Source: an uncultured delta proteobacterium
GTDB taxonomy: Bacteria; Desulfobacterota; Binatia; UBA9968
Length of the DNA stretch: 64,000 nucleotides
Direction of reading: 5' to 3'
Assembly (NCBI GenBank): GCA_963745835.1
Contig: CAVUZH010000015.1
Coordinates: 1-64,000, forward strand
Position 1 is the stretch's first letter, and the number at the start of each line of letters is the position of its first letter. This document shows positions 10,319 through 34,495 of the stretch, in pieces. The notes under the pieces are model-generated. The model did no database searches. It was not told the origin of the DNA and was given only the letters and a program-made list of their open reading frames with translations. Both the position numbers and the translations under genes were made by a program.

Positions 10319-10822
10319 ATGTCCTTCCTTACTGACGAACAGAAAGACCTTGCGAACGAGATCGCCGCCCTACTCACCGAGCGACGCGAGACGGTCTGCG
10401 TGGCGGAGTCTACCACTGGAGGCCTCGTGTCCGCGGCACTACTGTGGGTGGCCGGCGCGTCCAAGTACTACGCCGGTGGCAGCGTGCTCTACACGCTTGG
10501 CTCGCGCACGGCGCTGGCGGGTGTGCCGGCATCGATGTTTGAGAACTACCGCGGCACCACGCCGGAGATGATCGCCGCCATCGCCGACGCCATGCGCCAG
10601 CGCCTGGGCGCCACCTGGTGCATCGCCGAATCCGGCCTCGCCGGTCCCACGCGAGGCCGATCCGGCCTGCCACCCGGCCGCACGACGATCTGCGTCTGCG
10701 GCCCTGTAACGCGTGTCAACGTGCAGCAGACCGGCCTGCCGGACCGAGAGCCCAACATGATCGCCTTTACGACTCTGACGCTACGCTATCTGCGGGACGC
10801 GATTAAAGAGGCGGAGCATTAG
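10319..10822 (+). CDS. CinA-family / nicotinamide-mononucleotide deamidase-like protein
   Basis: VAESTTGGLVSA, GAS.YY.GGSVLY, AESGLAGP; GGAGG RBS upstream. Confidence 0.85.
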   Translation: MSFLTDEQKDLANEIAALLTERRETVCVAESTTGGLVSAALLWVAGASKYYAGGSVLYTLGSRTALAGVPASMFENYRGTTPEMIAAIADAMRQRLGATWCIAESGLAGPTRGRSGLPPGRTTICVCGPVTRVNVQQTGLPDREPNMIAFTTLTLRYLRDAIKEAEH

Positions 10823-10899
10823 GAGTTCGCCCCGCAGAAGCTACGGTGTTGGGCAGCCAAATTTGGCGAAATCCGAAATCAGTGTCGCTAAGAAAAAAT

Positions 10900-11180
10900 T
10901 TACCGTCGGCAGATCCACATCGGCACTTCCTGGTTCCTTTGGCGTTTCCACTCATAGAAGCCATCTGCCGGAATCAGATAACGCTGCGTTGAAACGAGCC
11001 GCTTGTACGATGGTCTTTCCCGCAGTGTCTCTGCACGGGCATTTATCAGCCGTTGCCAGATGGCCTTATCGTCGGTCCACGACGGCACGAGACCCCAGCG
11101 CATCGGCTTCAGTATGTTGCGTTCTTCATTACGCACAATCACCCGCACCTGTTGCGAAGGCGCAATGTTATAGCGCAATG
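10900..11180 (-). pseudogene. SRAP (SOS response-associated peptidase, YedK/HMCES) internal fragment
   Basis: RYNIAPSQ, MRWGLVPSW, LINARAET, LIPADGFYEW. The N-terminal MCGR and the C-terminal half are missing. Confidence 0.8.
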
Positions 11181-11319
11181 ATCCGGGCCGAGGCGCCGGG
11201 TCGCCCATTAGCAGGCAGGTCAAGAGGGCACAGACGTTCCTGTGAGAATTTTTTCTTATTCCCTTTTTCAACCCTCGCGGAATGTGTGATCGCTGATTGA
11301 CGCGCCCCTGTTTTCAATC

Positions 11320-11650
11320 AGTTGGTGTCGGATCGCATAGGTCCGCACCAGTCACCCATCAGGTTCAAGGCTTTGGAGCTGTCCCTACTGGGCAGTGATC
11401 TCCCGCCCCTGGCAATTTTCATTGCCCCAGAAAACTATCGGTACCACGCCGCGTCCAAGGTTATAGGATCACAGATCCTGTGGCTCTCCGTGTTCGGGGG
11501 CCAACCCTATTGTGGCTCACGGCGTGGGCGTACCATCGAATCACAGCACCGCCGAGTTGTCGATATGTAAAGGGACGGGATAGCCGCCAATCGGACCATG
11601 TGGTTCTAAGCCAACCCGGGTAATAGGCTCACTATCCCATCCCAACCGTT
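11320..11650 (-). ncRNA. Predicted bridge/seek RNA of the IS110 element
   Basis: Stem GGGAUGGGAUAG/CUAUCCCGUCCC (11572-11643) encloses CCGGGUU and UGGUCCGA, which match the two target flanks. AUGGGUGA (11352-11359) matches the donor end 7/8. RNA boundaries are approximate. Confidence 0.7.
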
Positions 11651-11662
11651 AAATGGATCTTG

Positions 11663-12679
11663 CTAAGCAAAGGCCTTCGTGAGATCAAACGCCACCTGAT
11701 CTTTGATAATGTAGTAACAAGCCCGGCAGAGCTTGTGCGCCACTGCTTTGATCCCCACAATCGCATTGCTCTTGGATTTCTTTTTCTGATAGAAGCTTTT
11801 GATCTTCGAATTAAACCGGATCGCGAAGTTGGCCGCCTCCACAAACGCCCAGGCCAAATACTTATTGCCGTTCTTGGTGTTGCCAGTTCCTTTACGCTTG
11901 CCGTTGCTGATCTTCTGGCTCCCCACACACCGGCAGTACGACGCGTAATTTCCGACACTGGCAAATCTCTCGATCTCTCCGGTCTCGAGCATGATAGTCA
12001 GCGCCAGGATGGGCCCGATTCCGGGTACCGTCTTTAGAAACCTGAACTGAGAGCGCAGCTTGACTCGGTCTTGGACGGTTTTTTCCAGGATCTCGATCTG
12101 GGCATCAGCGCTGTTCATCACCGCCAGATTGGCTTTGAGCGCTAGGACGAGATCCGGGTTGGGCAACACTCCATCGACGCGTTGGATATTGAGCGCTTTG
12201 ATGTACTGGGCGCTGATCGTGTTCCCCGTGGTGCGGCTTATCAGACTCTGGATACTCAGAAGATTCGCCGTCCTTTGATGCACGAGCTGGCCCCGCTTAC
12301 GCAACAAATCACGCAGCGCTCGCTCCTGCTTCGGATAGATGTAGCCCTCGGGTAAGACCCCGAGCCGGAGCAGATGGGCCAGCCACCGCGCATCGCTGTG
12401 GTCGTCGGTATACTTCAGCCCACTGTACTGCTGGATGGCCGCCGTGTTGGCGAGATGAAGTCGGTAGCCCTTCTCCATCAGTCCATCAACCAGCCAGTAC
12501 CAGTTATAGGTAGACTCCACCACGATGTCCTGAAGCGATCTCCGATAGGTTGACAGTTCCTGTGTGATCAACGAAAGATCGTTGGGCAAACGCTTCTGAT
12601 ACACCACTTGATCTTGCTCATTGATCACCACCGTCACGTTGTTGGTGGAATGCAAATCGATTGCTCCGTACAATTTCAT
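11663..12679 (-). CDS. IS110-family transposase/recombinase
   Basis: DEDD RuvC-like motifs AIDLH, VVES, KYTDDHSDA; VPGIGP and KNGNKYLAWAFVEAA in the C-terminal domain; AGGAGG RBS. Confidence 0.95.
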   Translation of the reverse strand: MKLYGAIDLHSTNNVTVVINEQDQVVYQKRLPNDLSLITQELSTYRRSLQDIVVESTYNWYWLVDGLMEKGYRLHLANTAAIQQYSGLKYTDDHSDARWLAHLLRLGVLPEGYIYPKQERALRDLLRKRGQLVHQRTANLLSIQSLISRTTGNTISAQYIKALNIQRVDGVLPNPDLVLALKANLAVMNSADAQIEILEKTVQDRVKLRSQFRFLKTVPGIGPILALTIMLETGEIERFASVGNYASYCRCVGSQKISNGKRKGTGNTKNGNKYLAWAFVEAANFAIRFNSKIKSFYQKKKSKSNAIVGIKAVAHKLCRACYYIIKDQVAFDLTKAFA

Positions 12680-12759
12680 CCCGGTTCCTCCTTTGAGTGG
12701 GTGTGGGGTTGTTTCCCCGCACGTTACGGCCTCTCGAAGGACCCTGCTAGATGATTATC

Positions 12760-13035
12760 GGACCACGCTATGTCGTTGCTTCATCAAACGATTTCTTTCC
12801 AAAGAACGTGTTTTGAGACCTTAGAGCCTCAGTTTCAGCGGCGAATTTGAGCGCGTACTCCTTCGCCATCTCCCGCAGCACGTAACTTCCATCGGATTCG
12901 ACGACATAGCGATGTGCGGCCTTGAACCAAGCTCGCTTCTTACCTCATCAATAAACGCTAAGCTTCCGACCGCGATCGATTCGGATCAACGATCATCGCG
13001 AATCGATAAGTCGTTCTCAAGCCGTCGGCATAGTG
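12760..13035 (-). pseudogene. C-terminal remnant of a RAYT-like transposase
   Basis: RDDR*SESIAVGSLAFIDEVRSELG..., YVLRE, ETEALRSQNTFF pieces running into the IS110 left junction. Confidence 0.65.
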
Positions 13036-13207
13036 TTGGCCGCCCCCCTCTTCTGAAATGAGTGCTTGCACCCGCATCGGTGAACTTAATTACGTCACGA
13101 GTACAATGAGGGTACTCGGAGCCGGCGTTGCGAATATCGTCCGCGACAATTGCATGCGGCTGTTTCATCAAGTAAAGGAAACATAAGCTGATCTAATCAC
13201 CGAGTCG

Positions 13208-34441: not shown

Positions 34442-34495
34442 CCATGAGCAGGCAGGTCAAGAGGCACAGACGTTCCTATGAGAATTCTTCTTATT
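34442..34495 (-). mobile_element. Orphan right end of an IS110 element related to 11201..12759
   Basis: CCATGAGCAGGCAGGTCAAGAGGCACAGACGTTCCTATGAGAATTCTTCTTATT is near-identical to 11205-11260. Confidence 0.75.

What the first reader, a model, noticed from the sequence alone, without database searches (positions are those of the whole stretch)
11196..12765. IS110 element whose 3' non-coding RNA visibly encodes its target and donor guides
Seen: removing 11201..12759 with one GA core kept gives the minus-strand target GTGGTCC-GA-CCCGG. The stem-loop at 11572-11643 contains TCGGACCA (11591-11598), identical to 12758-12765, and in the RNA sense CCGGGUU (11613-11619), matching the opposite strand of the other flank (CCGGGTC, 11196-11202; 6/7). 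A second region has GTCACCCAT (11351-11359) versus donor end GTCGCCCAT (11200-11208). Both GA-ending guides are followed by (U/C)UGG. Known: IS110/IS1111 recombinases use bridge/seek RNAs with opposite-strand guides. Inference: an intact, programmable system with a GA core and an RNA of about 330 nt. I could not locate the second donor guide, and saw no subterminal inverted repeats.
Basis: partly seen in the sequence, partly recalled or inferred. Interest (0 to 1): 0.8.

Follow-up and report, generated by a model that had tools for sequence, protein, structure and literature searches.

The report
RNA-guided IS1111-type insertion sequence
This is an apparently intact jumping gene of the IS110/IS1111 family that carries its own guide RNA spelling out where it inserts; the mechanism has been known since 2024, so this is a clear new example, not a new principle.

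Summary
Window 11201-12760 (minus strand) is a 1557-bp IS110-family element of the IS1111 type. It has a 338-aa DEDD transposase (11663-12679), a short left end and a 462-nt 3' non-coding region. A second copy (C5) shares only about 11 and 8 flank bases with it. An empty paralogous site and an empty-site contig fix the boundaries to within a 3-nt repeat.

The hairpin at 11572-11643 is a target-binding loop. Across 65 of 80 relatives it is found by one covariance model, and its two guide strands track the left and right flanks (0 of 10,000 shuffles each).

AUGGGUGA (11351-11359) matches the right end. Three relatives carry the same substitution in both guide and end.

First, subterminal inverted repeats exist (TAGCAGG, 11209-11215 / 12743-12749) and covary. 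Second, the shared core is better read as YG (CG here) than GA: 14 of 61 relatives lack GA at the right junction.

The second donor guide was not found. The RNA is a covariation-supported structure of about 345 nt that includes a second target-loop-like domain of unknown role.

Verdict: a new member of a known kind, of moderate interest.

The parts
11201..12760 (-). Whole insertion sequence with both copies of the 3-nt repeat (CGA in element sense). Net inserted length is 1557 bp.
   Evidence: The second copy at C5 matches window 11192-12764. Empty paralogous site at C5:167113. An X1 contig joins 11200 to 12758, skipping 1557 with 3 ambiguous letters.
11663..12679 (-). Transposase gene, 338 aa, DEDD/RuvC-like N-terminal domain plus Tnp C-terminal domain.
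   Evidence: ORF. Pfam PF01548 E 1.2e-14 and PF02371 E 3.9e-18. NCBIfam NF033542 'IS110 family RNA-guided transposase', 178 bits against a cut-off of 140. D8, E55, D93, D96 and S258 are invariant in 17 sequences.
12680..12760 (-). Left end (78-81 nt). It holds the conserved terminal motif GATAATCATCTAGC, the left subterminal repeat and the ribosome-binding site.
   Evidence: The motif is conserved at a fixed distance upstream of the start codon in the relatives.
11572..11643 (-). Target-binding stem-loop (seekRNA-like hairpin). It has a 13-bp outer stem, an internal loop with the two guides, and a distal UGG/CCA hairpin.
   Evidence: Fold. RNAalifold gives 18 pairs, 11 of them with compensatory changes. 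Covariance model R1 gives its only window hit at 11565-11640, 61.7 bits, E 5.7e-12, and hits 65 of 80 relatives' loci.
11613..11620 (-). Right target guide (RNA CCCGGGUU). [quoted passage not shown]
   Evidence: Direct reading. Covariation at positions +1 to +8 in 30 distinct guides, with 0 of 10,000 shuffles reaching the observed score.
11591..11598 (-). Left target guide (RNA UGGUCCGA). It is identical to the top strand of the left flank plus core, TGGTCC-G-A (12765-12758), so it pairs with the bottom strand.
   Evidence: Direct reading. Covariation at positions -1 to -6 in 42 distinct guides, with 0 of 10,000 shuffles. These are the top hits of an unbiased column scan.
11444..11527 (-). Second domain ('L2'). 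It has a closing stem (11514-11527 / 11444-11456) around an internal loop built like the target loop: GAGCC-ACAAUAGGG-UUGG ... CCA-CAGGAUCUG-UGAUCC. Role unknown.
   Evidence: The closing stem has many compensatory changes. The loop strands do not follow the flanks: where the two loops differ, the flank agrees with the target loop 49 times, with L2 4 times and with neither 5 times.
11338..11536 (-). Long-range stem (11528-11536 with 11338-11346). It encloses L2, two small hairpins (11411-11441), a variable hairpin, and the single-stranded donor-guide segment.
   Evidence: RNAalifold on 34 sequences. For example, the pair at columns 117/367 is changed on both sides in 17 sequences.
11351..11359 (-). 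Left donor guide (RNA AUGGGUGAC). It matches the right-end terminus ATGGGCGAC (11208-11200), with a U opposite the core pyrimidine.
   Evidence: Direct reading. Of 58 elements, 43 have ATGGGTG in both places. Three (L021, L061, L037) carry the same internal substitution in guide and end. In 8 others the end has C at -1 while the guide keeps U (L061 has C there too); in L034 and L077 the end has G.
11209..11215 (.). Right subterminal inverted repeat (TAGCAGG on the + strand).
   Evidence: The arms covary across 39 distinct left arms, with 0 of 3000 shuffles reaching the observed score.
12743..12749 (.). Left subterminal inverted repeat (CCTGCTA on the + strand).
11218..11223 (-). TTGACC, a -35-like hexamer in the right end. 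In a circle it would lie 15 nt before GATAAT of the left end (12759-12754), forming a candidate junction promoter.
   Evidence: Direct reading. TTGAC is kept near the right end in the relatives, at 15 nt in this clade and 17 nt in L016, L021 and L028. No sigma-70-like promoter is found in the linear element.
12761..12765 (-). Left half of the target that is not part of the element (TGGTC; the core CG follows at 12760-12759).
   Evidence: Shared with the C5 copy over GGTC. Matches the left target guide.
11192..11201 (-). Right half of the target (ACCCGGCGCC in element sense).
   Evidence: Identical in the C5 copy and 9 of 10 in the empty C5 site. The first 6 nt pair with the right target guide.

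Best explanation
An apparently intact copy of an IS1111-type member of the IS110 family, whose DEDD transposase is guided by an RNA made from the element's own 3' non-coding region.

Shown:
- The first hairpin after the stop codon carries two short guides. One is identical to the left flank plus core and pairs with the bottom strand. The other is complementary to the core plus right flank and pairs with the top strand.
- These guides change together with the insertion site in relatives.
- A third segment, about 240 nt downstream and held in a long-range structure, repeats the last 7-8 nt of the right end.
- The ends carry covarying subterminal inverted repeats.

Inferred from the known family mechanism (IS621, ISEc11):
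- The element excises as a circle that joins the right and left ends.
- The junction brings TTGACC and GATAAT together as a promoter.
- The RNA-transposase complex pairs the target TGGTC-CG-ACCCGG with the donor junction ATGGG-YG-ATAATCAT.
- Strands are exchanged at the YG core. U and G residues opposite the core (UUG in the right target guide, U in the donor guide) tolerate either pyrimidine.
For: Protein family: (distant match to the solved ISCro4 and IS621 recombinases, E 7.9e-9 and 9.2e-7).

Boundaries and site specificity.

Hairpin structure: 11 of 18 pairs have compensatory changes. A model built from it finds exactly one place in the window and 65 of 80 relatives' loci.

Left guide against left flank: 5.83 of 8 identical, against 3.60 when flanks are shuffled (sd 0.18, max 4.36), 0 of 10,000.

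Right guide against right flank: 6.73 of 9 against 5.21 (max 6.13), 0 of 10,000.

Long matches in retargeted relatives: L058 10 nt, L061 9 nt, L047 9 nt, L053 8 nt.

Guide order: the top-strand match lies 5' of the bottom-strand match, as reported for IS1111 seekRNAs (PMC11187229 section 9).

Donor guide. Inverted repeats.

Whole-RNA structure: 36 of 46 pairs have compensatory changes.
Against: - No direct evidence of transcription, RNA ends, circle formation or transposition. No circle-junction joint appeared in the four runs laid.
- No Rfam family matches.
- The right donor guide was not found, either by inspection of the loop 5' side across left-end variants or by an unbiased column scan.
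- The other genomic copy has a frameshift in the transposase gene and a 1-nt deletion in the right target guide. Both are homopolymer differences and may be assembly errors.
- The C-terminal motif reads RCVGSQKISNG. It is not the GL-P----S(t)G pattern that PMC11187229 gives for IS1111 transposases.
- Shuffle tests ignore relatedness of the elements. I dereplicated by guide sequence only.
Confidence: 0.85

Rival explanations
1. seekRNA-only model. Only the roughly 75-nt hairpin after the stop codon is the functional guide. It reads the target, and also the target-derived flanks of the donor during excision. The ends are recognised by the protein through the subterminal repeats. The conserved 270 nt downstream, including AUGGGUGA and L2, serve processing, stability or protein binding and not donor pairing.
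For: Short seekRNAs of 82-96 nt suffice for ISEc11 transposition, and donor flanks must match the target (PMC11187229 sections 7, 10). No right donor guide was found. The donor-guide string is nearly invariant, at 43 of 58, so the covariation evidence is thin.
Against: Three relatives carry the same substitution in the guide and in the right end (L021 G to C; L061 and L037 G to A). The segment is followed by CUGG, just as the left target guide is followed by UUGG. It sits single-stranded inside a stem with strong compensatory support. Durrant et al. report target- and donor-complementary loops in IS1111 elements (PMC11208160 passages).
Confidence: 0.25
2. The window copy is a recently dead relic. 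Its sequence features are real, but it no longer moves.
For: Only two full copies exist in a 7.3-Mb genome, plus several decayed fragments. The C5 copy is frameshifted. No circle junction was seen. There is no promoter-like site in the linear form.
Against: The 338-aa frame is open and is 95% identical to the nearest metagenomic relatives, with all invariant residues kept. Both guides match both flanks. An empty-site contig exists in a DNA run. Three unoccupied sites carrying the full 12-nt target remain in the genome.
Confidence: 0.15
3. The matches are chance, and the hairpin is an ordinary 3' UTR structure or terminator.
For: The 8-mer occurs 4 times in the window against 1.9 expected. The fold z-scores are modest, at -2.4 and -2.5.
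Against: Guide-flank covariation on both sides. No run of T follows the hairpin, and no terminator-like site was called on the minus strand.
Confidence: 0.02

Closest known systems
IS1111-family elements with seekRNA (ISEc11, ISPa11, ISKpn4; Siddiquee et al. 2024, PMC11187229)
   Same: DEDD transposase of about 339 aa. Long non-coding region downstream of the gene. Subterminal inverted repeats. A hairpin RNA with the top-strand match 5' of the bottom-strand match, and the two matches overlapping at the insertion point. A -35 in the right end and a -10 in the left end of a circle junction. Each clade has its own target.
   Different: Other target (TGGTC-CG-ACCCGG). The conserved structured RNA is about 345 nt, against reported long forms of 148-172 nt (Table 1 of PMC13604230). 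It has an extra target-loop-like domain. The catalytic-loop motif is SNG in RCVGSQKISNG, not GL-P----S(t)G. Sequence relatedness to these named elements was not measured here, as no reference sequences were at hand.
IS621 / ISCro4 bridge recombinases and bridge RNA (Durrant et al. 2024, PMC11208160; Hiraizumi et al. 2024, PMC11208158)
   Same: Four-guide logic. The left guides pair with the bottom strand and the right guides with the top strand, all overlapping a 2-nt core. Bases next to the core match the non-cognate partner: the base after the left target guide equals the first left-end base. The base after the donor guide equals the first right-flank base in 8 of the 12 relatives with a donor guide on record whose right junction is not GA. 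This resembles handshake guides.
   Different: The RNA lies at the 3' end, not the 5' end. The core is YG, not CT. The protein matches only weakly (E 7.9e-9 and 9.2e-7, C-terminal half). The donor guide is not in a hairpin loop of the same build as the target loop. The right donor guide was not found.
'IS110-like element ISGsu4 family transposase' (annotation label on Paraburkholderia plasmid records)
   Same: The best named relative in the plasmid collection: 51.6% identity over 99% of the protein (H11 and H14).
   Different: This is only an annotation label. I did not examine that element's ends or RNA.
ISPpu9 and its solo Ssr9/MITEPpu9 modules (PMC12288879)
   Same: The genome holds solo pieces of the element's non-coding end apart from any transposase gene, as P. 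putida holds solo ssr9 modules.
   Different: ISPpu9 belongs to the IS110 group and has no junction promoter. The pieces here look like truncated remnants that begin at the right-end terminus. They were not shown to be mobile.

Membership tests
IS110 family (RNA-guided DEDD transposases) | N-terminal DEDD/RuvC-like domain plus C-terminal Tnp domain | tested here: met
   PF01548 and PF02371 are above their cut-offs. NF033542 scores 178 bits against a cut-off of 140.
IS110 family (RNA-guided DEDD transposases) | Catalytic D-E-D-D and serine present | tested here: inconclusive
   D8, E55, D93, D96 and S258 are invariant in 17 sequences of 77-100% identity. Their assignment as the catalytic residues rests on analogy with IS621 (D11, E60, D102, D105, S241 in the PMC11208158 passage). 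It does not rest on a residue-level alignment over the N-terminal domain.
IS110 family (RNA-guided DEDD transposases) | Site-specific insertion, no terminal inverted repeats, only a short core repeated at the two junctions | tested here: met
   Two copies share the flanks GGTCCG and ACCCGGCGCC. Empty sites hold a single CGA.
IS110 family (RNA-guided DEDD transposases) | Non-coding RNA with guides for both strands of the target | tested here: met
   Covariation of both guides with the flanks. That the RNA is made and bound was not testable.
IS1111 group | Longer non-coding region downstream of the transposase gene | tested here: met
   462 nt downstream against 78-81 nt upstream.
IS1111 group | Subterminal inverted repeats (7-17 bp per the PMC11208160 passage) | tested here: met
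   7 bp perfect, or 10 with a 3-nt bulge, lying 10 and 7 nt inside the junction G. The arms covary, with 0 of 3000 shuffles.
IS1111 group | seekRNA order: top-strand match 5' of bottom-strand match | tested here: met
   The right target guide (11620-11613) precedes the left target guide (11598-11591) in the RNA (PMC11187229 section 9).
IS1111 group | Transposase 330-350 aa | tested here: met
   338 aa (range from PMC11187229 section 6).
IS1111 group | C-terminal GL-P----S(t)G consensus (described as typical, not used as a criterion) | tested here: not met
   The protein has YCRCVGSQKISNGKRKG and no string fits G..P....[ST]G. I take this as a clade peculiarity. It lowers the certainty of the 'IS1111' label somewhat, but not that of the mechanism.
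IS1111 group | Transposase clusters with IS1111 in a phylogeny | not tested

The most novel reading that the evidence does not exclude
The guide RNA of this clade is a three-domain molecule of about 345 nt. Its middle domain (L2, 11444-11527) is built like a second target-binding loop, yet it does not read the current insertion site. L2 may be a functional third programmable loop. For example, it could give a second, ancestral specificity: its strands read like the clade's commonest target, ...GATCTG / ACCC(C/T)... It could also guide excision or end synapsis. That would be an architecture beyond the two-loop bridge RNA. The tandem pair of target hairpins with different guides in relative L056 points to the same modularity.
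Probability: 0.2. Interest if true: 0.6.

Novelty: new member of a known kind. Interest (0 to 1): 0.35.

Why it matters
This is a clean natural example of RNA-guided recombination in a very large clade. More than 8000 protein clusters were within reach of one search, mostly from metagenomes.

The guide code can be read straight off the DNA:
- 6 nt plus core on the left side;
- about 8 nt on the right side;
- a YG core read through wobble-capable U and G residues.

For people who mine bridge or seek recombinases, it offers a compact 338-aa enzyme, a well-defined 72-nt target hairpin and dozens of naturally retargeted relatives.

For genome annotation, it explains a 462-nt 'non-coding' tail and several orphan fragments.

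It does not change what is known about the mechanism.

Tried and rejected
Rfam. No family matched 10800-13200 at E up to 1.

Right donor guide.
- I lined up the 14 nt before the UGGGG hairpin for all relatives, sorted by left-end variant (GATAAT, GAAAAT, GATGAT, GATAAA and others). Only the final UC, opposite G-A, is constant. The rest does not follow the left end.
- I then scanned every RNA alignment column against every junction position in 40 left and 38 right junctions. This returned the left target guide as the top hits and otherwise only clade-marker noise. One search failed on an N in one sequence and was rerun.

L2 as a reader of the flanks. The effects are weak: 3.66 against 3.20 (11 of 5000 shuffles) and 3.91 against 3.61 (76 of 5000). 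Where L2 and the target loop differ, the flank follows the target loop 49 to 4. By eye I found no complementarity of L2 to either end.

Promoter scan. None was found in the linear element. The two terminator-like sites are both on the + strand, and that number is what shuffles give.

Sequencing runs.
- All runs are Logan contigs. RNA-library contigs at 90-95% likeness cover 11218-11571 more deeply than the gene. That region is conserved among many relatives and DNA can be present in such libraries, so I draw no conclusion on expression or RNA ends.
- No circle-junction joint was seen there. This is not evidence of absence.

Regex for the target loop. It was replaced by the covariance model.

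Right-end location. This was corrected.

Rows dropped before the counts:
- 15 of 80 loci had no model hit.
- Loci whose contig ends before 12 nt of flank were dropped.
- L035 was dropped because its left end was mislocated.
- The C5 copy was dropped as a duplicate of the window copy.
- L021's right end was set by hand.

Papers.
- PMC11187229: outline and sections 6, 7, 9, 10 and 13 read.
- PMC11208160, PMC11208158, PMC12288879, PMC13604230 and PMC13626964: passages from the find mode only.
- All others: search listing only.
- Supplements are closed. The seekRNA folds in the supplementary figures of PMC11187229, and Extended Data Fig. 10 and Supplementary Table 5 of PMC11208160, may already show this clade or a multi-domain RNA. 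I do not claim that L2 is undescribed; I only searched 'IS1111' with 'donor-binding loop'.
Full report
OBSERVATION.

The minus strand of 11663-12679 encodes a 338-aa protein. It carries the two Pfam domains of IS110-family transposases. It passes NCBI's model 'IS110 family RNA-guided transposase' at 178 bits against a cut-off of 140. Its only solved relatives are the ISCro4 and IS621 bridge recombinases, and the match is distant (E 7.9e-9 and 9.2e-7). The gene is followed by 462 non-coding nt and preceded by about 80, which is the layout described for the IS1111 type (PMC11187229 section 6).

BOUNDARIES.

The window's genome holds a second copy on contig C5. It aligns to window 11192-12764 and is unlike the window beyond that. 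The two copies therefore share the element plus GGCGCCGGG-TC on one side and TC-GGACC on the other.

About 1.6 kb from the C5 copy lies a paralogous stretch with the same flanks and no element, holding one TCG where the occupied sites hold two. A contig of DNA run X1 joins window 11200 to 12758, skipping 1557 nt with 3 ambiguous letters. Its depth is 3 and only 27 letters lie on the shorter side. X1 may also be the source sample, so this is supporting evidence only.

The element is thus 1557 bp, and its ends are fixed only to within a 3-nt repeat (CGA in element sense). Three further unoccupied places in the genome carry the full 12-nt site.

RELATIVES.

One protein search reached its ceiling of 8000 hits, with the best at 95% identity. 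A scan of one genome per species found 592 encoding stretches among 600 candidates. The best 80 were kept, at 53-94% identity. Nearly all show the same left terminus, GATAATCATCTAGC, at a fixed distance before the start codon, preceded by different flanks.

THE TARGET LOOP.

Directly after the stop codon the relatives share a hairpin with three parts:
- an outer stem that keeps pairing through changes on both sides (11 of 18 pairs);
- an internal loop;
- a distal UGG...CCA hairpin.

A covariance model built from 35 of these hairpins finds one place in the window (11565-11640, E 5.7e-12). It also finds one in the C5 copy, one in a decayed remnant on C22, and hits in 65 of the 80 loci.

On the 3' side of the loop, the six bases before an invariant G are identical to the six bases of the left flank before the junction G. 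Identity at positions -1 to -6 is 1.00, 0.98, 0.69, 0.90, 0.88 and 0.79, against 0.82-0.40 for mismatched pairs. There is no signal at -7 and beyond. For 42 distinct guides the mean is 5.83 of 8 against 3.60 after shuffling, with 0 of 10,000 shuffles reaching it.

On the 5' side, the loop is complementary to the right flank at +1 to +8. For 30 distinct guides the mean is 6.73 of 9 against 5.21, again 0 of 10,000. The better of two registers was taken for real and shuffled pairs alike.

In the window the two strands read UGGUCCG(A) and CCCGGGUU. They fit TGGTC-CG and G-ACCCGG. The order, top-strand match first, is the one reported for IS1111 seekRNAs. Retargeted relatives give long matches: 10 nt in L058, 9 in L061 and L047, and 8 in L053.

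THE CORE.

In the relatives the left junction reads G-A in 68 of 69. The right junction reads G-A in 47, G-G in 8, G-T in 5 and G-C in 1 of 61. That variable base is paired by the right target guide (L047, L058 and L084). The base before G is the same pyrimidine at both junctions in 43 of 47.

The left target guide spells that pyrimidine exactly. The donor guide always has U there, even where the right end has C. That is so in 9 elements, counting L061 and the window copy. The right target guide offers U, U and G opposite A, G and Y.

I therefore read the core as YG (CG here), read through wobble-capable bases, with A as the first base of both the left end and, usually, the right flank. This is inference from junction statistics, not a mapped cleavage site.

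THE DONOR SIDE.

AUGGGUGA (11351-11359) repeats the right-end terminus. It is nearly invariant: 43 of 58 elements have ATGGGTG in both places. Even so, L021, L061 and L037 each carry the same internal substitution in the guide and in the end. It is followed by CUGG, as the left target guide is followed by UUGG.

The base after this guide equals the first base of the right flank in 8 of the 12 relatives with a donor guide on record whose right junction is not GA. L044 and L058 have no donor guide on record. This count was made by eye. It recalls the handshake guides of IS621.

TAGCAGG lies at 11209-11215 and its complement at 12743-12749. The arms covary across the clade: 9.10 of 14 against 7.36, with 0 of 3000 shuffles.

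A right donor guide was not found.

TTGACC in the right end would lie 15 nt before GATAAT in a circle. The spacing is 17 nt in more distant relatives. Junction promoters are known for the family (passages).

THE WHOLE RNA.

An alignment of 34 non-coding regions gives a consensus structure of 46 pairs, 36 of them with compensatory changes. Its parts are:
- the target hairpin;
- a long-range stem (11528-11536 with 11338-11346);
- inside that stem, a second domain, two small hairpins and a variable hairpin;
- the single-stranded donor-guide segment.

Conservation runs on to about 11300.

The second domain (L2) has the same build as the target loop. It does not follow the flanks, and I found no partner for it.

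ACTIVITY.

This is not shown. In favour: an open frame with all invariant residues, guides that fit both flanks, and an empty-site contig. Against: the C5 copy differs by one extra A in the gene, which breaks the frame at residue 279, and by one missing G in the right target guide. Both lie in homopolymer runs and could be assembly errors. RNA-library contigs allow no conclusion.

COMPARISON AND VERDICT.

The element works like the IS1111 seekRNA elements and the IS621 bridge system. It meets the organisational criteria of the IS1111 type. It departs from the published C-terminal consensus (SNG in RCVGSQKISNG). Its place in a transposase tree was not tested.

Guide RNAs were predicted for 93% of IS1111 elements in 2024. 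This is therefore a new member of a known kind.

The open points are the role of L2, the missing right donor guide, and the exact core.

Noticed in passing
G000 contig C5:168783-170341 (locus L002): The second full copy differs from the window copy by two single-base homopolymer changes. One G is missing in the right target guide (CCCGGG to CCCGG). One extra A in the transposase gene splits the frame at residue 279. This is either a dead copy or assembly error.
   Followed up: partly
G000 contig C22:96724-97206 (loci L003, L007): A decayed, rearranged remnant. It holds a 40-nt left-end piece flanked by the same GGACCAC half-site and, about 200 nt away on the other strand, a target hairpin with the same left guide but a broken distal hairpin (model score 44 bits).
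   Followed up: partly
window 34442-34495; also C5:21658-21873, C13:691428-691572, C13:679740-679765: Orphan pieces (26-216 nt, 82-100% identical) that all begin at the right-end terminus of this or a sister element and stop at different internal points. No transposase gene lies nearby, and each has a different flank.
   Followed up: partly
window 10900-11271 (-) and 12767-12940 (-): The element sits between gene fragments. Downstream is an SRAP (SOS-response-associated peptidase) piece covering only profile positions 30-123 of 214, with no N-terminal Met-Cys. Upstream is a 58-codon open stretch without a start that ends 7 nt before the insertion point. The neighbourhood looks degraded.
   Followed up: partly
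locus L056:1020-1093 and 1138-1209: A relative (56% identity) carries two target hairpins in tandem with different guide strings on both sides of the loop. Both are found by the covariance model (36 and 43 bits). It may be a natural two-target element.
   Followed up: no
locus L073, from about 60 nt after the transposase stop codon: The non-coding RNA region of this relative is interrupted, shortly after the target hairpin's distal CCA, by at least 1.4 kb of unrelated coding sequence. By eye it looks like another transposase; this resemblance is recalled, not tested.
   Followed up: no
window 11229-11254 (+): A terminator-like hairpin plus T-run on the + strand, inside the right end. It points against the element and is conserved in the closest relatives. 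It could block antisense read-through from the flank. The count of such sites is no higher than in shuffles.
   Followed up: no
G000 C5:167115, C15:208316 (-), C18:211987 (-): Three unoccupied places carry the complete 12-nt target (left half, core, right half).
   Followed up: partly
loci L067, L071, L078, L080, L084, L085 and others: Many contigs of relatives stop at or within a few bases of an element end. That is expected when an element is multi-copy and breaks short-read assemblies.
   Followed up: no
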